Shown one piece after another: positions 33,880 to 53,764 of a DNA stretch of 64,000 bases. A program made the position numbers and the translations under genes. This DNA comes from a virus (lineage: Duplodnaviria > Caudoviricetes): positions 1-64,000 of IMG/VR virus record IMGVR_UViG_3300028242_000036; one strand, given 5' to 3'. Every line of letters starts with the position of its first letter. Within the stretch, counting starts at the first letter, position 1. The notes beneath the pieces are model-generated. The model saw only the letters and a program-made list of their open reading frames with translations. It did not search any database and was not told the DNA's origin.

Positions 33880-34803
33880 TTAATGTGCGTTCTTATCTGC
33901 TTCGTGAAGTAACATTATATCCTTATATAAATCCTCACCCCAAAGTTTACGATATTTGTTTAATGTTTTTTCTTCTTTAATAAAATACGGTTGCATATGC
34001 CAACGAATAAGAGTTGCAACAGTTAACGAGCTTATATCATCAGTTCCCCAAAAGAAACTATTATATGAACCTGTATACTGATGGTCGTAATAGTGTGCCT
34101 CTTTAGTGGTTTCACCTTTTGTGTTTTTAAATGTTTTACAGAAAGGTTTGCCACAATCGTGTAACATTGTAGCACATCTTAATGCAACATTATGAAGCTC
34201 ATAATCCTTTTGATGTGTAGAAACATAATCCCAAGCTTTATTACAATGTTCACCAAGAGTTAATTGATGATGTGAGTTATGTTGGTCATCAAATTTATAA
34301 TGATTTAAGAAACCATAAGGTGTACCATAATATTTTTTATGTGTTTCATCAATATAAATAACTTCAATATCATCCCAACCCTCATACCAATAAGGCACAT
34401 CGAAATGTCTATACATTCTTTCAATAACCTCTTCGGGAACTTTTCTATCTCTATAAAATCTGTTATTCTTTAAACACACTTCGTAAGGTGTAGCCATAAA
34501 AATACAAATCTTTTCACAAGGAATTTTATTAAGTTCATTTAAGAAAGCCATACGGCGTTTATAGTTAATATTGGTTGCATCATATATACAATTTTTACCG
34601 TTTGTTAAATCCTCTTTAACACGGCTATGTAAGGTTTTAAATACCAAATCATTAATATTCTGATTGTTAATATTTCCCGACAGCTCTTCTCTAATAGCAT
34701 CACTTGCGTGAATATTGGCATCGTATTTGTCGGCAAGCTCTTTAGCATAGGTTGATTTACCGCTTGCAGGTAAACCTACGAGCATAATAAATGTAGGTGT
34801 CAT
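33880..34803 (-). CDS. Polynucleotide-kinase-like P-loop plus HD-domain protein (RNA end healing)
   Basis: GLPASGKST, YDATN, MLHDCGKP, WHM, LHEADKNAH. Confidence 0.85.
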   Translation of the reverse strand: MTPTFIMLVGLPASGKSTYAKELADKYDANIHASDAIREELSGNINNQNINDLVFKTLHSRVKEDLTNGKNCIYDATNINYKRRMAFLNELNKIPCEKICIFMATPYEVCLKNNRFYRDRKVPEEVIERMYRHFDVPYWYEGWDDIEVIYIDETHKKYYGTPYGFLNHYKFDDQHNSHHQLTLGEHCNKAWDYVSTHQKDYELHNVALRCATMLHDCGKPFCKTFKNTKGETTKEAHYYDHQYTGSYNSFFWGTDDISSLTVATLIRWHMQPYFIKEEKTLNKYRKLWGEDLYKDIMLLHEADKNAH

Positions 34804-39228: not shown

Positions 39229-40698
39229 TTACTCACTTTCTACAATTTCCTGTGCCTCTTCCATATCGGCTTCAGTAGCACTATCCTTTACAATTCCTTC
39301 GAGAACCTTAAAGGTGAAATTCTTATGCTTATAAGCAGTAAACTTAGGTCTGTTTTCAATTCTTACAACTACACCCTCACGCCAATGGGTCTTGCCAATG
39401 GGGTCAACACCATCATAATAATATTCTGCTATATCTTTTACAAATTCGCCAGCTTCTATGGTAATGGGTTCACCCATATCTGTATAAAATACATCATTAG
39501 GAATAATAAATCTTTTAAGCATAGGTACAACCTTAACACCCATCTGTTCACAACGATACTTCATATAATCATAAGGGTATTCAACTACCTCACCATCTTC
39601 ATTGGTCATAGTCATACGATATACATAAATATCTGACTGAGGTTCACAACGACCAAGATTATATCCACCATTCTTATCGTTCCAACCATTAGGTTCACAA
39701 CCATAACTAAATATAGTTTCATCACCATACTTCTTAACAAATTCCTTATCGTTAAGCTTCTTATTACTTACCGTAGGCATAATAGGTGTGCCTGTATCTG
39801 TAAATCCAACTACCTCATAGAATACCTCTTCGCCCTTATGTAACTTGCCTACAAACTTATTGTGGTGCTGTTCTCTAAATGAGTTATTACCATAATAGCC
39901 ACCGTCATAGCTTTCAAGAACAGTTCTTCTTGTACCTGATACATAATCCCAATCGTAAATAGGAGTTGCTCGCTTTATAATCCAATCATAGATTTTAGTA
40001 TCCCAAGGCATCATTTTGCCACCATTCTGTTCTTCGTACTTCTTAGCTCCCTCTGTAAACCACTTTTCAAAAGGAGTCTTGTATTTATAACCCTTAAATA
40101 CAGGCAGATAACCTGTTCTCTGTGAAGTACCGTGTAGCTTCAGTGTAATTTCAACAATGTCTCCTGCCTTAAAAGCGTGTAGATTATATGCAAGCTGTGC
40201 AGTGTCAATATGCTCTTCAAAATAAGGAGAGATAACCACTTTCCTTCTCTTGTTTGAGTTGCCTGTTGAATAACTATTGCTTCTATGATTTGTCTTAGGA
40301 ATATACTTTTCACAAATCAGTACACCATTAAGAGTTGTAATTGTATCACCCTCATTAAGTGTCTTAATATCAACATAATCAGCAAGGCTTTCAAGTGGCA
40401 TAAACAAACCGTCTGACTGTTCACCACGAAGCTTCAGAGCCTTAATGTTCCTCTTTTCGGGGTCAAGATAACCACCAACATTATTACCATTTTCGTCTTT
40501 TCTTCGTACAAGATTATGCTTATTTGCAAAGTCCTCACTGAGCTTACCATCTACAGGGAAATATACACCTAACTGATTTTCGGTATAATCAAGGCTTACA
40601 ATAACATTGTTACCAAAACATTCACCACAAAGCAAACGGTCAGCGTTGTGATGGGGTCTTACATTTCTTAATCTTGTAATATATCCACAATATGCCAT
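39229..40698 (-). CDS. ATP-grasp RNA ligase (Rnl2/DRB0094-like)
   Basis: VRPHHNADRL N-terminal OB; TLKLHGTS (KxxG), FYEVVG, REGVVVR, KHKN.TFK. Confidence 0.85.
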   Translation of the reverse strand: MAYCGYITRLRNVRPHHNADRLLCGECFGNNVIVSLDYTENQLGVYFPVDGKLSEDFANKHNLVRRKDENGNNVGGYLDPEKRNIKALKLRGEQSDGLFMPLESLADYVDIKTLNEGDTITTLNGVLICEKYIPKTNHRSNSYSTGNSNKRRKVVISPYFEEHIDTAQLAYNLHAFKAGDIVEITLKLHGTSQRTGYLPVFKGYKYKTPFEKWFTEGAKKYEEQNGGKMMPWDTKIYDWIIKRATPIYDWDYVSGTRRTVLESYDGGYYGNNSFREQHHNKFVGKLHKGEEVFYEVVGFTDTGTPIMPTVSNKKLNDKEFVKKYGDETIFSYGCEPNGWNDKNGGYNLGRCEPQSDIYVYRMTMTNEDGEVVEYPYDYMKYRCEQMGVKVVPMLKRFIIPNDVFYTDMGEPITIEAGEFVKDIAEYYYDGVDPIGKTHWREGVVVRIENRPKFTAYKHKNFTFKVLEGIVKDSATEADMEEAQEIVESE

Positions 40699-46051: not shown

Positions 46052-47593
46052 TTATACAACTGTACGAAGTGCCTCTTCAACAGCCTTATATCTTTCAGAA
46101 TTAAGTTCCTTAACTAATGCCTTATAAGGGTCAAGCTCACCATTCAGCACAAGCTTCATAATGTTTGCAGAGAAACCACTAACAAGTGCTACACCCATAT
46201 CATTTTGCTTTACAGGAATTGTACCTGTTCTTGAAGCAAGATTCCAAAAGATAAGTCTCGGAAGTTTATAACCATACTGAGCATACTTATTTGCAATAAC
46301 ATCAAAGAGTGTTGCACTAACACGACCACGACCATTAGTTGTTGCACAACTGTCAAATTCCATATCTGAAAGAATAAGAACATTCTGAGGAATTTCATCC
46401 TGTGTCATATGGTTATTGATTGCTGTCTTTAAAATAAGGTCAAACACAGCTTCAATATTTGTATTTGCCACCTCATTGTGCTTTAATGCAATTTCAAGCT
46501 TATCGTGTAAAGAACTTGCATTTGTAAAATCAACCAACTGTGGTCTATTACTAAATGTAATATACTTATCCTTAAACTCTCCACTACATCTCTCACCACA
46601 ATAAATAGCAAGAGCATTTGCAACCTCTAAAGCAGTTGTAGAAGAATTACTATCAACTGGTGTCATCATAGAACCTGAACCATCGGCAACAACGATTGTG
46701 TCTTTAATATTGCCAATATCTTTAAGTGATTTCCACATCTGTTCAAGTGCTTCGTCATAAGAGCCTACTCTACTGCCCCAATAACCTCTGCTATACTTAT
46801 GAACTACATCGTGTGGGAAAAGTACACTTGCATTAATTTTGGTTTCACCCTTTTTGAGACTTTCGAGATATGCTCTTCTTCTCTCTTCATCATTACGCAT
46901 AAAGGCATTTGAATACTTGATATTTGCCTTTGAGGGAACAGTAGAATAATCAATGTTTTCCCATTCCTTTGCAGACATCTTACATTCAACAACATCAAGA
47001 TACTTTCTAAGAGCAGAAAGGGTCTTACGATACCTTCTTGCATCCCAATCTAAACTGTTTCTAATGAGTGTAGCTTTTCTCTTAGTGTCTTTTGAACTTG
47101 CATTTTCACTCGGCATCCACTTTGCAAGAAGTGAAATAGGCTTGTCTTCACGCATATTCATCTTGTCAAGAGCTAACTGAGTTTTAATGCTTACTAATGC
47201 TTCATTAACAACTTCTACATTGCCACATTCAATAAGCGTAATAAGATTATCCCATCTTGAATATTCAGGAATAAGCTTGATTACTGCAATGGCAATATCA
47301 GTATGCTGTTCGGCAAGATAATTCATAATTACTCTGAATGTTCTTCTTTCGCCAAGACCTTCTCTTACATCTGAAGCATAGAAAAGCCACTTAACTGCAA
47401 GCATTGGATTTTCATAATAAGCATCAATAAACTTATTGATAATTTCCTGCTCACTTGCTTTTCTTAAACTTGCAACTGCAAAGTTTAAATCAAGAAGGTT
47501 CTTACCTGTTGTAGCATAACCTACTGCACCATTTTCTGTAATGGAAATTCGATTATCCATTTCGTTCTTCATTGCTGACATAAAATTACTCAT
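46052..47593 (-). CDS. DUF2828 family helical-repeat plus vWA protein (Ro60/TROVE-like)
   Basis: TENGA, GLGERR, LLAKWMPSE, IDYSTVPS; vWA MIDAS VADGSGSM, TFS, NTN, LSDMEFD, FWNL, SGFS. Confidence 0.85.
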   Translation of the reverse strand: MSNFMSAMKNEMDNRISITENGAVGYATTGKNLLDLNFAVASLRKASEQEIINKFIDAYYENPMLAVKWLFYASDVREGLGERRTFRVIMNYLAEQHTDIAIAVIKLIPEYSRWDNLITLIECGNVEVVNEALVSIKTQLALDKMNMREDKPISLLAKWMPSENASSKDTKRKATLIRNSLDWDARRYRKTLSALRKYLDVVECKMSAKEWENIDYSTVPSKANIKYSNAFMRNDEERRRAYLESLKKGETKINASVLFPHDVVHKYSRGYWGSRVGSYDEALEQMWKSLKDIGNIKDTIVVADGSGSMMTPVDSNSSTTALEVANALAIYCGERCSGEFKDKYITFSNRPQLVDFTNASSLHDKLEIALKHNEVANTNIEAVFDLILKTAINNHMTQDEIPQNVLILSDMEFDSCATTNGRGRVSATLFDVIANKYAQYGYKLPRLIFWNLASRTGTIPVKQNDMGVALVSGFSANIMKLVLNGELDPYKALVKELNSERYKAVEEALRTVV

Positions 47594-47650
47594 TTTTAAT
47601 AACCTCACTTTGAATTTTAAATTTTAATTTTAATATATATTTAAAATTCC

Positions 47651-47712
47651 AAGGCTCAATTTTGCATTACAGATTAGCAGTCTGTCCCAAAAGATTTTGC
47701 TGTACGAGCCTT
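47651..47712 (-). ncRNA. ACAGCAA-module RNA E1 with Ser(GCU) anticodon stem-loop
   Basis: AAGGCUC/GAGCCUU stem, GUACAGCAA; cargo ACAGA-CUGCUAA-UCUGU. Confidence 0.75.
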
Positions 47713-47733
47713 AGAAATTATTTTAAAAAATAC

Positions 47734-47802
47734 AAGTCGCAATTTTTGTATAAGTTTAAATTTCAAGTTTAATCTCATAGTATGATTTGCTGTATGCGAC
47801 TT
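47734..47802 (-). ncRNA. ACAGCAA-module RNA E2 with Ser(UGA) anticodon stem-loop
   Basis: AAGUCGCA/UGCGACUU stem; cargo UUAAA-CUUGAAA-UUUAA. Confidence 0.75.
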
Positions 47803-47826
47803 ATGTATATTAAAGAAAGGAGAGAC

Positions 47827-47888
47827 AAGACACATTGAAAAGAAAGCCACCATCGTCTATTAGTAAATTTATTTGCTGTATGTGTCTT
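47827..47888 (-). ncRNA. ACAGCAA-module RNA E3 (cargo unassigned)
   Basis: AAGACACAU/AUGUGUCUU stem plus ACAGCAA. Confidence 0.7.
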
Positions 47889-47913
47889 AAAAGGAGAATC
47901 AAAACGAAACCCT

Positions 47914-47987
47914 TGGAGCAACATAAGGTACTTGAAACCTTATTTTCTGATTGGAAATCAAATGTGTTACCGTTACACCAATGTTGC
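47914..47987 (-). tRNA. tRNA-Gly(UCC)
   Basis: Full cloverleaf; loop TTTCCAA; encoded CCA. Confidence 0.9.
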
Positions 47988-47997
47988 ATATAATAAC

Positions 47998-48127
47998 AAG
48001 ACTCTATCAATAAACAATAGTCGCTGTCTTACCCCTTGACTACTACCTCATTCGGCAGGTAGGAATCGAACCTACGAATGGCGACTTGGCTTCTGTTATT
48101 TGAAAAAAGAATTGCTGTTAGAGTCTT
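47998..48127 (-). ncRNA. ACAGCAA-module RNA E4 containing a circularly permuted tRNA body
   Basis: AAGACUCU/AGAGUCUU stem; AGUCGC, T arm GUAGG-UUCGAUU-CCUAC, closed acceptor, D arm GUC..GAC, GCGACU. Confidence 0.8.
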
Positions 48128-48134
48128 ATTTATT

Positions 48135-48210
<76 letters not shown>

Positions 48211-48244
48211 ATATATAATTAAAAAATTTTATAACATTAGGGTG

Positions 48245-48337
48245 TTATATACCCAACACTTCTCTTACAAGCTCTATCGGCAATTCCTGTCCGTAAGCAA
48301 GTGCAAGAATAATTAAACTTCTCTTTAACTTAGACAT
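48245..48337 (-). CDS. 30-aa small ORF MSKLKRSLIILALAYGQELPIELVREVLGI
   Basis: AAGGAGG RBS; read manually (below the ORF-track cutoff). Confidence 0.55.
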   Translation of the reverse strand: MSKLKRSLIILALAYGQELPIELVREVLGI

Positions 48338-48370
48338 TTACATTCCTCCTTATTTTATTTTATTGATTAA

Positions 48371-48446
48371 TGGTGCAGATGGTGGGAGTTGAACCCGACT
48401 TAAGCACGATTAAAAGTCGTGTGCCTGACCGTTAGGCTACATCTGC
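48371..48446 (-). tRNA. tRNA-Lys(UUU)
   Basis: CACGA-CTTTTAA-TCGTG; CCA; slightly irregular T stem. Confidence 0.88.
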
Positions 48447-48449
48447 ATA

Positions 48450-48525
48450 TGGCGGTGACAGAAGGACTTGAACCTTCGACACAGTGGTTAACAGCCACTC
48501 GCTCTACCTACTGAGCTATGCCACC
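48450..48525 (-). tRNA. tRNA-Asn(GUU)
   Basis: AGTGG-CTGTTAA-CCACT; full cloverleaf; CCA. Confidence 0.92.
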
Positions 48526-48543
48526 ATAAAATGATAAGCGTAG

Positions 48544-48627
48544 CTGACATACTACCTTATCTTGCTTCTGTATTTTACAACTTGCAGTAGACCATTGTTG
48601 GGTTTTTACAAAAACGCCTTATGTCAG
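48544..48627 (-). ncRNA. Candidate structured RNA between tRNA-Gln and tRNA-Asn
   Basis: Closing stem CTGACATA/TATGTCAG around a multibranch core (CTAC/GTAG, TGC/GCA, TGTA/TACA). Confidence 0.4.
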
Positions 48628-48656
48628 ATGTGTTTTCGGTGTTGTCCTTCACATTA

Positions 48657-48731
48657 TGGCAGGGGTAATAGGGTTTGAACCTATAATAATGGAGTCAAAG
48701 TCCATCGTGTTGCCAATTACACCATACCCCT
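48657..48731 (-). tRNA. tRNA-Gln(UUG)
   Basis: ATGGA-CTTTGAC-TCCAT; CCA. Confidence 0.92.
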
Positions 48732-48803
48732 ATGTTTGGTGGTTATTAAGGTCAACCACCATAACCTTTTGAAAGAGGTTTATTATGACAAATCATCAAC
48801 AAG

Positions 48804-48877
48804 TGGTGGAAAATGTCAGAATTGAACTGCTCCCCACCCTCCCAAGGGGCGTGTGCTACCGTTACACCACATTCTCC
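48804..48877 (-). tRNA. tRNA-Pro(UGG), irregular T stem
   Basis: CGCCC-CTTGGGA-GGGTG; CCA; T stem only about 3 bp. Confidence 0.75.
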
Positions 48878-48883
48878 ATATTC

Positions 48884-48946
48884 AAGACACATTTCAGGTT
48901 TTATAGTTTAAAAGACTATTCCTAAATAATTTGCTGTATGTGTCTT
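48884..48946 (-). ncRNA. ACAGCAA-module RNA E5 with Lys(UUU) anticodon stem-loop
   Basis: AAGACACAU/AUGUGUCUU; cargo AUAGU-CUUUUAA-ACUAU. Confidence 0.78.
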
Positions 48947-48959
48947 TATTGATTAGGTT

Positions 48960-49046
48960 TTAATAGGGCAGTAAATCTGCACCGAAAATTAAACAAAAGA
49001 AATTCATAATTGATGTGAATACAATATTGATAATATCAAGTGCCAT
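48960..49046 (-). CDS. 28-aa hydrophobic small ORF MALDIINIVFTSIMNFFCLIFGADLLPY
   Basis: AAGGGAG RBS; read manually. Confidence 0.5.
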   Translation of the reverse strand: MALDIINIVFTSIMNFFCLIFGADLLPY

Positions 49047-49079
49047 AGTGTTACTCCCTTCTTTTAAATTTCTATATTC

Positions 49080-49219
49080 AAGATACATTTTTATTGATTT
49101 ATCGTTGCTCTACCGACTGAGCTATCCTGCCATTGGGGGCAGGAGCAGGACTCGAACCTACGACCTACGGCTCTATGTTGCTTATCATTAAAAATTTACT
49201 TATTTGCTGTATGTATCTT
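49080..49219 (-). ncRNA. ACAGCAA-module RNA E6 containing a circularly permuted tRNA body
   Basis: AAGAUACAU/AUGUAUCUU; T arm GUAGG-UUCGAGU-CCUGC, acceptor UCCUGCC-CCCAAU-GGCAGGA, D arm GCUC-AGUCGGUA-GAGC. Confidence 0.82.
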
Positions 49220-49221
49220 TT

Positions 49222-49308
49222 TGGTAGCGATAGTGGGACTTGAACCCACACGGTATTTCTACCCTCAGATTTTAAGTCTGATGTGTCTGCCTATTCCACC
49301 ATACCGCC
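49222..49308 (-). tRNA. tRNA-Leu(UAA)
   Basis: TCAGA-CTTAAAA-TCTGA; long variable arm; CCA. Confidence 0.92.
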
Positions 49309-49350
49309 ATATTTACAGGGTGTAATCAAACACACCCTATTTTATTTTGC

Positions 49351-49506
49351 AAGGCTCTAATTCTAAACTCTATTCAACACGGCTTTAAAAACTATCAACG
49401 ATACAGGTATCGTCAGATTTGGAAACTCACCGTAAAAGTTTTGTTCAACCCAATTCTTTTTAAATCTTTATTTGATAATTTCACTATCGTTTGCTGTGTG
49501 AGCCTT
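49351..49506 (-). ncRNA. ACAGCAA-module RNA E7 with long multi-hairpin cargo
   Basis: AAGGCUC/GAGCCUU plus ACACAGCAA; includes AACUU-UUACGGU-GAGUU. Confidence 0.68.
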
Positions 49507-49515
49507 TAATTTTTC

Positions 49516-49590
49516 AAGACACATTGCATTATAACTTTTTTATTCCTCTAATAAATGTCTATAATTTCTAATGTTTGCTGTATGTGCCTT
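49516..49590 (-). ncRNA. ACAGCAA-module RNA E8
   Basis: AAGGCACAU/AUGUGUCUU; cargo hairpin UUUAUU-AGAGG-AAUAAA. Confidence 0.7.
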
Positions 49591-49594
49591 TCGT

Positions 49595-49727
49595 GTCTTC
49601 GTCAGACTAAAATTTTCAACTGATATTAAGCTAAAGGACTTTCACCTTTAGGAATGGTGGTTGGGTTTGTGTATGCATCCACTTCCAACGGTCTACTGAT
49701 GACCAATCGCTAATCTGTTACACCATT
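49595..49727 (-). ncRNA. Candidate structured RNA
   Basis: AATGGTG/CACCATT and GTTGG/CCAAC stems, then CTAAAGG-TGAAAGT-CCTTTAG and GTCT-GACGA-AGAC hairpins. Confidence 0.4.
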
Positions 49728-49762
49728 TTTTCATATCTTGTACTTTTAAGAGATTTTCTTTT

Positions 49763-49845
49763 TGGTCGATGCAATTAGGAATCGAACCTAATCCTTGCGA
49801 CTCACTCTGAGTCACTGTGCTACCCATCCTCTACACTATACATCT
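49763..49845 (-). tRNA. Atypical tRNA-like RNA without a canonical anticodon loop
   Basis: Acceptor, D arm, T arm (TTCGATT) and CCA present; anticodon arm GTGACTC-AGAGT-GAGTCGC (7 bp, 5-nt loop). Confidence 0.6.
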
Positions 49846-49973
49846 AAATCCCTGCTACACCAAACTCACTATTGTACGGATAGTATTGAGCTTAGTTTGT
49901 ACATTGTAGCATACTCGATATGGCTTTGTACTCACTACTTAATTTGTTCTGTAATCTCTCGACTACATTTACT

Positions 49974-50263
49974 ATTATAATATTATTTTGTTGTTTTGTC
50001 AAGAGGTTTTTGAAACTTTTTTGATTTTTTCTTAAATCTTTTTGTTCGGCTTTCTTCGACCACTGACATACTCTATTATAATATTATTTTATTCATTTGT
50101 CAAGGGGTTTTTGAAATATTTTTCAAAAAGTTGGCTACCGATTTGAGGAAAGACTATACAGACACTTATATCCAACAGTTCGACAGCTCAATGCTTTCCT
50201 ACAATCAAACTGTTCCCTCCACCTGACATATTCTATTATAATATTATTTTCTTGTTTTGTCAA
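49974..50263 (-). promoter_or_regulatory. Three tandem class A promoters with A-rich UP elements driving the tRNA/ncRNA array
   Basis: TTGACA-17-TATAAT at 49974-50002, 50075-50103 and 50235-50263. Confidence 0.85.
50132..50229 (-). ncRNA. Candidate pseudoknotted small RNA
   Basis: Starts right after a promoter; AACAGTTTGA/TCGAACTGTT stem whose loop AGGAAAG can pair with downstream CTTTCCT. Confidence 0.45.
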
Positions 50264-50282
50264 TACCTTTTTGTAAAATTTT

Positions 50283-50546
50283 TCAATTTCTTTTAAAACT
50301 CATATTGCTAATACTTCTGATTCCACAAAAGACTGCTCCTGATATTGAACGAATTGCGAATAACACCCAAAAGAAATCCCAATATCCAATAGTAGGAAGG
50401 TCTGAAATATACTTACACACTACTTCATATCCTTTACCTACCAACCAAGCATTAAGAAAAGTTGCTAATATTGTACCCATAAAAGTTCCTAATACTGTGC
50501 CACAACCCTCTGCAATAATTTTTTCGTCAAACTTCTCTGTTGTCAT
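50283..50546 (-). CDS. Small membrane protein
   Basis: Two hydrophobic segments; RBS. Confidence 0.6.
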   Translation of the reverse strand: MTTEKFDEKIIAEGCGTVLGTFMGTILATFLNAWLVGKGYEVVCKYISDLPTIGYWDFFWVLFAIRSISGAVFCGIRSISNMSFKRN

Positions 50547-51354: not shown

Positions 51355-52425
51355 TTAATTTAGATATATGCTTTCGACACCTACCTTGATTAATTCTTGT
51401 AAGCTACCTACCCTTGCATTGACAACTAAATGTCCGTCATTACCTGTTGGTACATAAGGTTCACAATAATTAAATTTACCTGCTATTTGAGCTACTTCAT
51501 ATCTGTCAAGTTCTTTTGCACCCTTTTCTTTCATCATTGAATATGCTTCGTGTAAAATACCACTATGATACAAATTGGTTACAGTAATATAAGGATTGCC
51601 TACCCACTCCCTAATTACACGCACTCTTGCTTGTAATCCCTTTTGTTCCATAGGTACATCTATTTTCTTGCCACCAGCAGTTTTAAATACATAAACACTT
51701 TCAGGGAATCTTAATGTTCTTACTCCTAAACCGTTTGTTAATATCTTGTTAGGGTCTTTTCTGCTTTGAGCAGTACCGTTATTTAAATAATATGCCTGTT
51801 GAGATATAGTTAGTTTAAGTAGTTCAAAACATCTTTCAGAACAACCAAATATCTTTCTTACATTCCCTTTTTTATCAGTAGCAACAATACCTTTCTCTTT
51901 AAAATCAATATCTGTCTCTTTAAGATTTATTAATTCATCAGGCTTTAAACCATTAAATAGTAATTCTAACATACACCTATCATTAAAATTAACCAACTTT
52001 TCTTCTATCTCTCTTACCTCTTGATAGGTTAGATACTTATTTTCCATAGCATTTTTATTCACATACTGTGAATAGTCTGTGATTATTTCAAATGGATTTA
52101 ATGTTGTTAAATTGTGTTCAATACAGTAATTTATATACTTTTTAATATATGATATACCTGTTCTTACAGTAGCCACCGATTTATAACTAAATTCATTTTC
52201 TATTAGTTCATTAACTTCGGCTAAATTAAAATTATATACACTTTTCCCAATTAGTTTTTCAAACTTATCAACCTTTAATAAAACACCCTTCAATGTTTTT
52301 GCTGTACTTGGATTTAAAGTATTTAAAAAATCTTCTTTGTTGGCACTATCTATCTCAAATTTTCTATCTGCTAATGCCACTAAACCATTTCGGCATACTT
52401 TAACCTCTTTCTTTTTGTTATTCAT
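51355..52425 (-). CDS. Tyrosine-recombinase-fold protein lacking catalytic residues (SPbeta YopR/SroF-like repressor)
   Basis: LELLFNGLKPDEL (R to K) and TNLYHSG in place of HxxRH. Confidence 0.7.
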   Translation of the reverse strand: MNNKKKEVKVCRNGLVALADRKFEIDSANKEDFLNTLNPSTAKTLKGVLLKVDKFEKLIGKSVYNFNLAEVNELIENEFSYKSVATVRTGISYIKKYINYCIEHNLTTLNPFEIITDYSQYVNKNAMENKYLTYQEVREIEEKLVNFNDRCMLELLFNGLKPDELINLKETDIDFKEKGIVATDKKGNVRKIFGCSERCFELLKLTISQQAYYLNNGTAQSRKDPNKILTNGLGVRTLRFPESVYVFKTAGGKKIDVPMEQKGLQARVRVIREWVGNPYITVTNLYHSGILHEAYSMMKEKGAKELDRYEVAQIAGKFNYCEPYVPTGNDGHLVVNARVGSLQELIKVGVESIYLN

Positions 52426-53764
52426 TCTCCCTCTCTCCTATAAACAAATTATATAATTTATTTTTTGCAGATTTATTTAAGTTATTAGTAAGATTAGATA
52501 TATAAATATTATTCTGATTATCTCTGCCAAAATCATAAGAAGAAAACACTTTAGATACTATTTGTATCCAATCATTCACTCCGTATAATTTTCTACTCAT
52601 ACCTATATATGCCATAAACATATATTTATTGGTTGAAAAATCATTCTTGCTTAAAAACTGACTAATGTGATTCAAGAAATTTACTATCCAATCTGCTACT
52701 GATTTTGCCATAGATTTATTTGTTAATAAGTCACTATAATTATCTGCAATAGCTGTGGCAAGCAAACTCTTTTTAGTATAACCGTCATATCTTAACTCTT
52801 GTTCAGTATTTTTTATCTTATCTGATAATTCAAACAAAGGACTATCTATAATTAAATCAACTACTAAATTTTCTATTTTACTTTTGTCTAAAGTATTAAC
52901 ATACTCTTTTTTAATAGGTGTCTGCTTATTAATTTGCACCATAAAATCTTGTGCTTTTTGTTCTGTGAAATTTGTTATTGTAAGTTTCCAATTAAATTGA
53001 AGTTCAGGGTTTCTAATAATGGCTAATTGATTTGCTGTCTTTCTGTGAAAACCATCAAATATATCCATTTCACCACTAATGATTTTTAATTCACCAACAA
53101 CACCATCGGTTGATGAAAATTCAATTTCATCATCACCGTTTCTCAAAATATTTATTTTGATTTCGTCTGCAAATTGTCTACCACTCAAAAGATTATCTGA
53201 AATTTCTTGTATCTTTTTTGTATTAACATTAATTCTTTTAATACCAAACATATCTATTTTTGCATTTCTTTGGGTGTTAAAGTTATAAATAATATCGTTA
53301 GCTCTGTCAATAAGTGCCAAATCTTGTGCCGATATAATTCCTGTATAATGACCATCTGACACTTTTAACATATTTGAAAAAGTATAAGGATACCCCTCTT
53401 CTTTTTCAGGGGTATAACTATGTTTAGAAAAATATTGTTGTTCGGATAAAGTAAAATAATCCTTAACATCTAATTTAGTTATTTCTTCTTCTAAACCAAT
53501 AGATTCATCACTTCTATCTTTAAGTCTTAATGCTTCTTGAAATCCTTCTGTAAAAACATAAAGCACAAATAGTTCTTTATCGTTTTTAATATCTAATGTT
53601 TCCAACTCTAATCTTCTGTTAAGTATTTTAATAGGATAACTACTCAATAAATTCTTTTCTGTAAATTTAGATTTTAGATATTCTTTGACTTGTCTATTTG
53701 TGCCATATTTATTTATCATTTGATTTAGTACATTAATTAAATTTGCGTTGCTTTGATTTAACAT
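52418..53764 (-). CDS. DGQHR/DndB-like (ParB superfamily) protein, YopQ/SroE-like
   Basis: DIFDGFHR motif; overlaps the recombinase-fold gene. Confidence 0.7.
   Translation of the reverse strand: MLNQSNANLINVLNQMINKYGTNRQVKEYLKSKFTEKNLLSSYPIKILNRRLELETLDIKNDKELFVLYVFTEGFQEALRLKDRSDESIGLEEEITKLDVKDYFTLSEQQYFSKHSYTPEKEEGYPYTFSNMLKVSDGHYTGIISAQDLALIDRANDIIYNFNTQRNAKIDMFGIKRINVNTKKIQEISDNLLSGRQFADEIKINILRNGDDEIEFSSTDGVVGELKIISGEMDIFDGFHRKTANQLAIIRNPELQFNWKLTITNFTEQKAQDFMVQINKQTPIKKEYVNTLDKSKIENLVVDLIIDSPLFELSDKIKNTEQELRYDGYTKKSLLATAIADNYSDLLTNKSMAKSVADWIVNFLNHISQFLSKNDFSTNKYMFMAYIGMSRKLYGVNDWIQIVSKVFSSYDFGRDNQNNIYISNLTNNLNKSAKNKLYNLFIGERENE

What the first reader, a model, noticed from the sequence alone, without database searches (positions are those of the whole stretch)
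49080..49219. Circularly permuted tRNA body (T arm, acceptor closed by CCCAAU, D arm) inside module E6
Seen in sequence, 5' to 3' on the - strand: CCGU, AGGUC, T arm GUAGG-UUCGAGU-CCUGC, UCCUGCC, CCCAAU, GGCAGGA, UA, D arm GCUC-AGUCGGUA-GAGC, A, ACG. The 3' half of a tRNA precedes its 5' half, the 7-bp acceptor stem is perfect, and N-CCA survives inside the joining loop. The anticodon loop is replaced by the ACAGCAA module. Established: YrlA RNAs have this T-acceptor-D permuted arrangement. Inference: it probably arose from a head-to-tail tRNA junction (ACGG/CCGU stem, Asn-like). Cleavage after CCA could yield an aminoacylatable or CCA-bearing tRNA mimic that has no anticodon.
Basis: partly seen in the sequence, partly recalled or inferred. 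Interest (0 to 1): 0.85.

Follow-up and report, generated by a model that had tools for sequence, protein, structure and literature searches.

The report
Phage Y RNA shaped like tRNA
This 140-base phage gene encodes a small RNA that is a tRNA written inside-out and clamped by a conserved "handle", almost certainly a partner (Y RNA) of the Ro60-like ring protein encoded just downstream; the design is already known from bacteria and mycobacteriophages, but this copy keeps a tRNA-style CCA end inside its sealed tip.

Summary
On the - strand, 49080-49219 reads: 9-nt stem strand, ACAGCAA, linker, CGU, variable loop, T arm, UCCUGCC, CCCAAU, GGCAGGA, UA, D arm, A, ACG, linker, 9-nt partner strand. 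ARAGORN calls the re-permuted sequence a tRNA. Rfam YrlA matches full length, but at 42.7 bits against a cut-off of 69.

It is one of eight stem+ACAGCAA modules in a tRNA array, directly upstream of a DUF2828+DUF7788 protein. That protein's predicted fold matches Ro60 over both domains (Z 10-15.6). In 80 related phage loci the handle lies on the gene's strand 247 times and on the other strand 6 times. It also sits beside the homologous "Ro-like" genes of a mycobacteriophage, Listeria phage A511 and a Bacillus phage.

Orthologs of E6 keep the T arm, D arm and handle but swap the acceptor stem completely while keeping it paired.

So E6 is a YrlA-type Y RNA, a known design. It uses a different handle motif from the published one, and it encodes NCCA in its sealed loop. 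More distant relatives carry the same RNA in normal tRNA order, so E6 is a true circular permutation.

Cleavage at the loop by RNase P is plausible but untested. This scan has noted the same system before on other DNA (77 notes, at least 66 genomes).

The parts
49211..49219 (-). Handle, 5' strand (AAGAUACAU)
   Evidence: Pairs 9/9 with 49080-49088. The C-G pair of the orthologs is U-A here, a compensatory change.
49204..49210 (-). ACAGCAA motif, the invariant part of the handle and the presumed docking site of the Ro60-like protein
   Evidence: Seven exact copies of CAYACAGCAAA cluster at 47696-49584 (-), and 0 of 100 shuffles reach the window's count. An eighth module (E4, 47998-48127) carries UAACAGCAA. 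In 80 related loci, stem+motif occurs 247 times on the gene strand and 6 times on the other.
49170..49203 (-). 5' linker (34 nt)
   Evidence: Read from the sequence. The U-run and AAUGAU are conserved in orthologs.
49162..49169 (-). Closing-stem strand CGU plus variable loop AGGUC
   Evidence: CGU pairs with ACG at 49103-49105. C48 can form the Levitt pair with G15.
49145..49161 (-). T arm GUAGG-UUCGAGU-CCUGC
   Evidence: Canonical G53, U54, U55, C56, A58 and C61. Compensatory changes in L017, L105 and L103.
49138..49144 (-). Acceptor strand corresponding to tRNA positions 66-72 (UCCUGCC)
   Evidence: 7/7 pairs with 49125-49131. Orthologs carry wholly different but still paired stems.
49132..49137 (-). 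Loop CCCAAU: discriminator C, CCA, then AU
   Evidence: NCCA sits at the tRNA position, followed by U(-1) and G(+1). This is also seen in L011, L090, L082, L083, L203/L205, L209 and L213.
49125..49131 (-). Acceptor strand corresponding to tRNA positions 1-7 (GGCAGGA)
49106..49124 (-). U8 A9, D arm GCUC-AGUCGGUA-GAGC, A26
   Evidence: A14, G18, G19 and A21 are present. The D arm is nearly invariant in orthologs, with one compensatory pair in L105.
49089..49105 (-). Closing-stem strand ACG plus 3' linker (14 nt)
49080..49088 (-). Handle, 3' strand (AUGUAUCUU), followed by the conserved G at 49079
46052..47593 (-). Ro60-like protein gene (DUF2828 + DUF7788, 513 aa), the presumed protein partner
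   Evidence: Pfam. AlphaFold2 model with pLDDT 79.6. The top 13 Foldseek hits are all Ro60/TROVE (E 2.5e-9 to 1.5e-5). VIA-align Z 15.6-10.2 over about 400 residues, covering the HEAT ring and the vWA domain.
47651..49590 (-). Array of eight handle modules interleaved with seven tRNA genes. E6 is the sixth module counting from the Ro-like gene.
   Evidence: A second tRNA-like module lies at 47998-48127 (Rfam YrlA 27.7 bits).
49974..50263 (-). Three tandem TTGACA-17-TATAAT promoters upstream of the array, the likely source of a polycistronic precursor
   Evidence: Exact consensus matches. That they drive transcription of the array is inferred.

Best explanation
E6 is a Y RNA of the YrlA architectural type made by a phage. 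Its two ends pair into a 9-bp helix that carries the invariant ACAGCAA; I call this the 'handle'. The handle most likely docks the Ro60-like ring protein encoded 1.5 kb downstream.

The handle encloses a complete tRNA body without an anticodon loop, in the order T arm, acceptor stem, D arm. This body should fold into the tRNA L-shape.

The RNA is probably cut out of a polycistronic tRNA/Y-RNA precursor by the tRNA-processing enzymes. tRNA-Leu ends 2 nt before the module.

The resulting particle (Ro-like protein plus tRNA mimic) would act in RNA surveillance or repair during infection. This follows the analogy of Ro60/Y RNA/PNPase machines and fits the neighbouring RNA-repair genes.

Specific to this copy and a set of relatives: the sealed acceptor tip reads N-CCA-AU-G on a perfect 7-bp stem. 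That is the substrate form for RNase P. I think it more likely than not (about 50%) that the loop is cut. Cutting would give a two-piece RNA with a free CCA end, as is known for M. smegmatis YrlA.

Shown here: the anatomy, its conservation with compensatory change, the genomic association with the Ro-like gene, and the Ro60 fold of that protein's model. Inferred: protein binding, processing, and function.
For: Anatomy and tRNA likeness. Rfam YrlA matches full length at 42.7 bits (E 1e-8), and a second copy at 48001-48099 scores 27.7 bits.

Partner protein:
- Pfam DUF2828 + DUF7788.
- Predicted fold: the top 13 Foldseek hits are all Ro60, and VIA-align gives Z 15.6-10.2 over about 400 residues.
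- Its homologs in mycobacteriophages are annotated 'Ro-like RNA binding protein' (31% identity, E 1e-67).

Association of handle and gene:
- In 80 loci encoding a 49-61% identical protein, stem+ACAGCAA occurs 247 times on the gene strand against 6 on the other. 72 of 80 loci have at least one, and the peak lies within 500 nt upstream of the gene.
- The same handles flank the gene in Listeria phage A511, mycobacteriophage Jobypre and Bacillus phage Thrax4. In Jobypre the middle one of three holds a T/closed-acceptor/D body that scores 39 bits on Rfam YrlA.

Conservation:
- Orthologs defined by synteny (L011, L017, L105, L103, L104) keep the handle, T arm and D arm, while the acceptor stem is replaced four times and stays paired.
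- RNAalifold recovers all four helices on its own, 8 of 24 pairs with compensatory change.

NCCA:
- It is found at tRNA positions 73-76, with U(-1) and G(+1), in at least seven lineages with unrelated acceptor stems.
- L090 has the same AAGAUACA handle although its Ro-like protein is only 51% identical.

Precedent: M. smegmatis YrlA has a 7-bp stem, is cleaved by RNase P and receives CCA in vivo (PMC4201824; bioRxiv 10.1101/312249). A phage Ro60 has been shown to bind two phage Y-like RNAs and the host PNPase (PMC12135203).

Context: a PNK-like kinase with an HD domain (33880-34803) and an RNA-ligase-like gene (39229-40698) lie nearby.
Against: - No RNA-level or binding data exist for this element.
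- The Rfam score is below the family cut-off. Sub-threshold YrlA matches (E up to 1) turn up in 13 of 14 control genomes, so that match alone proves little.
- The published Ro-binding motif GNCGAAN0-1G is absent; ACAGCAA stands in its place.
- The protein matches Pfam DUF2828/DUF7788, not TROVE. Sequence-only comparison with solved Ro60 proteins is not significant (E 0.1-0.8).
- Against cleavage: the nearest E6 orthologs (L017, L105, L103/L104) have sealed loops without CCA and stems of 8-9 bp, so a free CCA end cannot be essential to the E6 lineage as a whole.
- The covariation count on alignment A5 is biased, because those sequences were picked by a structure descriptor.
Confidence: 0.8

Rival explanations
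1. The handle is not a docking site for the Ro60-like protein. It could be a processing or stability signal, or the footprint of a mobile cassette that shuttles tRNA-derived pieces through phage tRNA arrays. Its nearness to the DUF2828 gene would then be indirect: both simply live in the tRNA/RNA-repair region.
For: The same handle sequence carries very different cargo in other viral contigs. Examples are short hairpins, and D+anticodon+T bodies with the handle at the acceptor position. Acceptor stems are swapped like cassettes between close relatives. Many modules abut tRNA genes, so tRNA-processing enzymes would define their ends anyway.
Against: The strand and distance association with the gene is very strong: 247 against 6, peaking within 500 nt. 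It holds across phages of Actinobacteria and Firmicutes. The layout of a terminal helix plus a conserved single-stranded motif is the Y RNA layout, and a Ro60 fold next to a tRNA-like RNA is the published YrlA situation.
Confidence: 0.1
2. E6 is dead DNA: the remains of two adjacent tRNA genes (the 3' half of one and the 5' half of the next), with no function of its own.
For: Dimeric tRNAs are a known source of false YrlA matches (PMC4201824). 7 of the 18 descriptor hits in relatives are real tRNA-tRNA junctions. The loop looks like a tRNA 3' end plus spacer.
Against: The two acceptor strands are perfectly complementary to each other, which is not expected for two different tRNAs. No matching outer halves exist: tRNA-Leu abuts the module. 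The element is enclosed by a covarying handle. Orthologs keep the structure through complete replacement of the acceptor stem and compensatory T- and D-stem changes.
Confidence: 0.03
3. E6 is a permuted tRNA gene in the sense of the red alga Cyanidioschyzon merolae. The precursor would be circularised or ligated at the handle and opened at the acceptor, giving a decoding tRNA.
For: The 3' half precedes the 5' half. NCCA and G+1 are encoded. An RNA-ligase-like gene and a kinase/phosphatase-like gene lie nearby.
Against: There is no anticodon stem-loop. About 70 nt, including a conserved motif, occupy that place, and the native closing stem has only 3 pairs. No bulge-helix-bulge motif is evident. 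Normal-order relatives keep the handle hairpin inside the 'anticodon' position instead of an anticodon.
Confidence: 0.02

Closest known systems
YrlA-type Y RNAs of bacteria and mycobacteriophages (Rfam RF02553; Chen et al. 2014, PMC4201824; Wang et al. 2018, bioRxiv 10.1101/312249)
   Same: The order is the same: terminal stem, T arm, closed acceptor-like stem-loop, D arm, closing stem at the anticodon-stem position. The tRNA tertiary nucleotides are present. The gene lies within 4 kb of a Ro60-type gene on the same strand. A mycobacteriophage copy (Jobypre, L101:4545-4672) has the same handle and body.
   Different: The handle motif is ACAGCAA on a 9-bp covarying helix, not GNCGAAN0-1G. The Rfam score is below the cut-off. 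The partner matches Pfam DUF2828/DUF7788 rather than TROVE. E6 is one of eight modules interleaved with tRNA genes. The loop encodes N-CCA.
Mycobacterium smegmatis YrlA (PMC4201824)
   Same: It has a seven-pair acceptor stem, the feature that makes it an RNase P substrate. After cleavage it carries a CCA end.
   Different: There, CCA is added after cleavage and nibbling. Here it is encoded in the loop. Processing of E6 has not been tested.
Thermus phage phiLo Ro60 with Yrl1/Yrl2 (PMC12135203; PDB 9KOP, 9L5Y)
   Same: A phage-encoded Ro60 with Y-like RNAs encoded just upstream. It is the best structural match of the window's protein (Z 15.6).
   Different: phiLo's protein is a canonical TROVE protein. 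Its RNAs were picked by a CGAA motif and are not described as tRNA mimics.
Normal-order, handle-in-anticodon-arm units in related phages (e.g. L076:3566-3917, L023:3706-3823; seen here, not found in the papers searched)
   Same: The same parts, with 76% identity to re-permuted E6: acceptor, D arm, handle helix + ACAGCAA, T arm.
   Different: The topology differs. The acceptor is open, with 5' and 3' ends as in a tRNA, and the handle is a closed hairpin. E6 is the circular permutation of this form.
Permuted tRNA genes of Cyanidioschyzon merolae
   Same: The 3' half of the tRNA is encoded upstream of the 5' half.
   Different: Those genes mature into decoding tRNAs with an anticodon loop, through a circular intermediate. 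E6 has no anticodon loop.

Membership tests
YrlA (Y RNA-like A; Rfam RF02553) | tRNA-like domain in the order T arm, closed acceptor-like stem-loop, D arm, closed by a stem at the anticodon-stem position | tested here: met
YrlA (Y RNA-like A; Rfam RF02553) | Conserved tRNA tertiary nucleotides (U8, A14, G15:C48, G18 G19, G53:C61, U54 U55 C56, A58) | tested here: met
   All are present when E6 is numbered as a tRNA (read).
YrlA (Y RNA-like A; Rfam RF02553) | Encoded within 4 kb of a Ro60 ortholog, on the same strand | tested here: met
   E6 ends 1.5 kb upstream of 46052-47593 on the same strand. The protein is Ro60-like by predicted fold, not by Pfam TROVE.
YrlA (Y RNA-like A; Rfam RF02553) | [quoted passage not shown] | tested here: met
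   9-bp helix 49211-49219 / 49080-49088, covarying among modules and orthologs.
YrlA (Y RNA-like A; Rfam RF02553) | GNCGAAN0-1G motif near the 5' end (proposed Ro60 contact) | tested here: not met
   No such motif is in the module. ACAGCAA occupies the equivalent place.
YrlA (Y RNA-like A; Rfam RF02553) | Score at or above Rfam's gathering cut-off (69 bits) | tested here: not met
   42.7 bits. The published-type mycobacteriophage locus tested here also scores only 39.3 bits.
YrlA (Y RNA-like A; Rfam RF02553) | Physical association with Ro60/Rsr; modification by TruB and DusA | not testable with these tools
   Needs co-purification and modification mapping.
Ro60 / TROVE proteins (for the partner gene) | HEAT-repeat ring followed by a vWA domain with a MIDAS motif | tested here: met
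   Model aligned to 9KOP, 2NVO, 1YVR and human Ro60 over residues ~28-506, Z 15.6-10.2. DgSGSM at about residue 304 aligns with the MIDAS motif of phiLo Ro60.
Ro60 / TROVE proteins (for the partner gene) | Match to Pfam TROVE (PF05731) or significant sequence similarity to solved Ro60 | tested here: not met
   Pfam reports only DUF2828 + DUF7788. Comparison with PDB sequences gives E 0.8 for the single sequence and 0.1 for the profile.
Genuine tRNA gene | Contiguous cloverleaf with an anticodon stem-loop | tested here: not met
   ARAGORN and Rfam tRNA find nothing at 49080-49219 in native order. There is no anticodon loop.

The most novel reading that the evidence does not exclude
Phage Ro60-like proteins use a large, uncatalogued family of handle-tagged tRNA mimics that exists in interconvertible circular permutations. 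In one form the acceptor is sealed (YrlA-like). In another the acceptor is open and tRNA-like, with the handle in the anticodon arm. In a third the handle replaces the acceptor. E6 would belong to a subclass of the sealed form that RNase P reopens at an encoded N-CCA. The result would be an anticodon-less, CCA-ended and possibly chargeable tRNA body tethered to the ring protein. It could serve, for example, as bait or decoy for host enzymes that attack or inspect tRNAs during infection.
Probability: 0.3. Interest if true: 0.75.

Novelty: new variant of a known kind. Interest (0 to 1): 0.45.

Why it matters
Y RNAs with a tRNA-like domain are known, but what that domain does is still open. This phage lineage offers an unusually clean case for three reasons:
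- The mimic is a near-perfect tRNA body.
- Its acceptor stem turns over rapidly while staying paired.
- In this copy the sealed tip keeps the exact signals (7 pairs, N-CCA, U-1, G+1) that tRNA-processing enzymes read.

Together with the normal-order relatives, this makes one question directly testable: does the Ro60-like particle need a closed or an open, CCA-ended tRNA mimic?

It also shows that the DUF2828/DUF7788 proteins are Ro60 relatives with their own RNA handle. That family holds thousands of clusters in phage metagenomes and is present in A511-, Felix O1- and K-like phages. The handle can be used to annotate these RNAs, which Rfam does not report at its cut-off.

Tried and rejected
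- Near-identity search of 48000-50500 against cultured phages gave only short tRNA matches.
- Sequence-only comparison of the protein with PDB chains was not significant; the fold comparison was needed.
- A full-text search for DUF2828 found five unrelated papers. A search for ACAGCAA together with Y RNA or Ro60 gave nothing relevant.
- The supplementary tables of Chen et al. 2014 are not held. The 2020 Annual Review on bacterial Ro60 is not held.
- Sequencing runs: no RNA holder was listed for 47600-49600, so expression and RNA ends could not be examined.
- Covariance model R1 gave 276 hits at E up to 0.1. Of the best 150, 68 overlap real tRNA genes at tRNA-tRNA junctions and had to be sorted out by hand. 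I did not try to classify the weaker 'other' hits fully.
- A scan of viral contigs for the E6 handle (AAGATACAYACAGCRA) returned 117 stretches. Only 37 distinct modules had a 3' partner, and these carry mixed cargo, so the handle sequence does not define an E6 lineage.
- I tried to name the tRNA from which the body derives. The best genuine tRNA (Asn, 79%) is no better than the Y-type units (80%), so the isotype of origin is unresolved.
- A Thg1-like gene occurs in a close relative (L011). I considered it in connection with the C73 discriminator, but it is absent from the syntenic position in the window, so I dropped it.

Full report
**What is there.** The window is an AT-rich (about 31% G+C) piece of a 72-kb IMG/VR virus record, with nearly all genes on the - strand. 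On that strand, 47914-49308 holds seven tRNA genes.

Eight modules of one design are interleaved with them. Each has a 9-nt strand beginning AAG, the invariant ACAGCAA, a variable insert, the complementary 9-nt strand ending CUU, and then G. The middle six pairs of the helix differ between copies but stay complementary.

The finding, E6 (49080-49219), is the longest of these modules. The only correction is that the closing helix has three native pairs (CGU/ACG), not four.

**Is it a tRNA body?**
- ARAGORN sees nothing in the native order. It calls a cloverleaf once the segment from GGCAGGA onward is placed in front of the segment ending in CCCA.
- All the usual tertiary-contact nucleotides are in place.
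- The minimum-free-energy fold recovers the handle, acceptor and D helices (z = -3.6).
- Rfam's YrlA model matches from its first to its last position at 42.7 bits. A second module, 47998-48127, matches at 27.7 bits.
- Both scores are under the 69-bit cut-off. Weak YrlA matches (E up to 1) occur in 13 of 14 control genomes, so the case rests on context.

**The partner.** Directly downstream lies a 513-residue protein (46052-47593) that Pfam files as DUF2828 + DUF7788.
- Sequence comparison with solved structures is not significant.
- The AlphaFold2 model (pLDDT 79.6) has Ro60 proteins as its 13 best Foldseek hits and nothing else of full length. VIA-align gives Z 15.6 to 10.2 over about 400 residues, spanning the HEAT ring and the vWA domain.
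- The family is very large: 6946 clusters at 50% identity.
- It is present in 709 cultured-phage records. There it is labelled 'RNA-binding protein', 'vWFA protein', 'DUF2828' and, in mycobacteriophages, 'Ro-like RNA binding protein'. All three homologs I tested give the same two Pfam domains.

**Handle and gene travel together.**
- In 80 viral loci encoding a 49-61% identical protein, helix+ACAGCAA occurs 247 times on the gene's strand and 6 times on the other. It is found in 72 of the 80 loci, and most copies lie within 500 nt upstream of the gene.
- Listeria phage A511 has three handles just before the gene.
- Bacillus phage Thrax4 has two, one of which encloses a tRNA-like body.
- Mycobacteriophage Jobypre has three just after the gene. 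Its middle one encloses a T arm, a closed 8-bp acceptor and a D arm, and scores 39 bits on Rfam YrlA.

Chen et al. 2014 (PMC4201824) reported YrlA RNAs next to Ro60 genes in 254 bacteria and 22 phages, including mycobacteriophages. Wang et al. 2018 described most YrlAs as resembling circularly permuted tRNAs with closed acceptor stems. E6 is therefore this known design. Two defining features fail, however: the proposed Ro motif GNCGAAN0-1G is replaced by ACAGCAA, and the Rfam cut-off is not reached. I therefore file it as a variant rather than a plain member.

**Conservation.** Orthologs found by synteny in phages whose Ro-like proteins are 79-93% identical keep the handle, the linkers, the T arm and the D arm. 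The acceptor differs in each lineage:
- window and L011: UCCUGCC-CCCAAU-GGCAGGA
- L017: 9 pairs with a 10-nt loop
- L105: CUAUAUUC-AUUU-GAAUAUAG
- L103/L104: 9 pairs with a 26-nt loop

RNAalifold on these six sequences predicts the handle, the T arm, the base of the acceptor and the D arm on its own. Eight of its 24 pairs show compensatory change. This rules out decayed tRNA fragments. The higher covariation figures on alignment A5 are biased by how those sequences were chosen, and I do not lean on them.

**The permutation is real.** In more distant relatives the same parts stand in normal tRNA order: acceptor 5' strand, D arm, short stem, a hairpin followed by ACAGCAA, short stem, variable loop, T arm, acceptor 3' strand. 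The units lie head to tail, with junctions such as UCCUUGC-ACCA-AAU-GCCAGGG (L076).
- A descriptor demanding 7/7 acceptor pairs, a D arm and ACAGCAA between the D and T arms finds 132 such units on the gene strand and none on the other.
- Most have a helix directly 5' of ACAGCAA.
- Re-permuted E6 aligns end to end with L023:3706-3823 (87 of 114 positions; score 117, against 51.5 in native order and 47 +/- 7 for shuffles). In that unit the hairpin AUAUCUU-GGUA-AAGAUAU is E6's two handle strands joined by a loop.

The direction of the change, and the tRNA isotype it came from, are not resolved.

**The CCA.** N-CCA at tRNA positions 73-76, followed by one to a few A/U, then U(-1) and G(+1), occurs in sealed acceptor loops with unrelated stems in the window/L011, L090, L082, L083, L203/L205, L209 and L213.
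- L090 has E6's handle and linkers, yet its Ro-like protein is only 51% identical. Its acceptor and T stems have changed, but CCAAU-G has not. This suggests selection on the loop.
- A comparable number of sealed loops have no CCA, including E6's nearest orthologs.

M. smegmatis YrlA is the one published YrlA with seven acceptor pairs. It is cut by RNase P and then carries CCA (PMC4201824). I therefore put the chance that E6 is opened at U49132/G49131 at about one half.

**Function.** By analogy with Ro60/Y RNA/PNPase machines (PMC4201824; PMC12135203), the likely role is RNA surveillance or repair during infection. A kinase + HD gene and an RNA-ligase-like gene lie nearby, and A511 has a tRNA ligase close to its copy. 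What the tRNA mimic itself does is unknown here, as it is for YrlA in general.

**Earlier notes of this scan.** The same handle/DUF2828 system has been noted 77 times in at least 66 genomes, including both topologies. I reached the same reading from my own tests and treat those notes as agreement, not as evidence.

**Verdict.** E6 is a new variant of a known kind. Interest is moderate: the design is published. The encoded CCA, the fast-changing acceptor stem and the permuted relatives make it a good experimental handle on an open question.

Noticed in passing
window 47998-48127 (-): A second handle module (E4) with a T arm, a closed 5-bp acceptor (CUGCC-GAAUGA-GGUAG) and a D arm. Rfam YrlA scores it 27.7 bits. 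Its ortholog L017:5467-5603 shows compensatory T-stem changes. Its body resembles the normal-order unit L076:3805-3917.
   Followed up: partly
L076:3486-3920; L023:3706-3823; 132 units in L016-L099: Head-to-tail arrays of tRNA-shaped RNAs of about 113-125 nt, just upstream of the Ro-like gene. A hairpin + ACAGCAA replaces the anticodon loop. Their acceptors are open with perfect 7-bp stems. Only 10 of 81 distinct units encode NCCA. ARAGORN does not call them. I did not find this topology in the papers searched.
   Followed up: partly
L113, L201, L162, L145, L194, L204, L215, L218 (viral contigs): Modules with the same AAGAUACAU handle that enclose a D arm, an anticodon stem-loop (for example loops reading GAA or GCA) and a T arm, but no acceptor. 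Here the handle stands where the acceptor stem would be. This is a third topology.
   Followed up: no
window 49763-49870 (-): A tRNA-like sequence with acceptor, D arm, 6-bp T stem and a CCA tail, but a 7-bp stem with a 5-nt loop in place of the anticodon arm. Neither ARAGORN nor Rfam tRNA calls it. A further odd tRNA-like stretch lies at 49640-49740.
   Followed up: no
window 49974-50263 (-), and ten more sites on the - strand: Thirteen exact TTGACA-17-TATAAT promoters on the - strand. Nine share the extended form TTGACAAA..N..AAAATAATATTATAAT, and three of those nine stand in tandem just upstream of the tRNA/Y-RNA array, each followed by a short non-coding stretch.
   Followed up: no
E6 orthologs: window, L011, L017, L105, L103, L104: The acceptor stem-loop is replaced wholesale (four versions, 7-9 bp, loops of 4-26 nt) between phages whose flanking RNA sequence and Ro-like protein are 79-93% identical. 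This suggests cassette exchange or diversifying selection on this one helix.
   Followed up: partly
L100:1507-2058 (Listeria phage A511): A ROOL RNA match (87.5 bits, cut-off 99.1) lies between a tRNA gene and the three handles that precede the A511 Ro-like gene.
   Followed up: no
window 33880-34803 (-) and 39229-40698 (-): A kinase (AAA_33/KTI12) + HD-domain protein and a weak RNA-ligase-like protein (PHA02142 OB fold + RNA_ligase). Together they look like an RNA end-healing and sealing pair, a few kb downstream of the Ro-like gene.
   Followed up: no
window 48960-49046 (-) and 48245-48337 (-): Two very short ORFs (28 and 30 codons), each with a good ribosome-binding site, sit inside the RNA array. 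A 30-residue gene is called at the corresponding place in L011, L012 and L017. Neither matches a PHROG family.
   Followed up: no
window 51355-53764 (-): An MrpR-like recombinase-fold protein and a DndB-like protein overlap by a few bases. The pair is syntenic in L011, L012, L014, L017 and L106.
   Followed up: no
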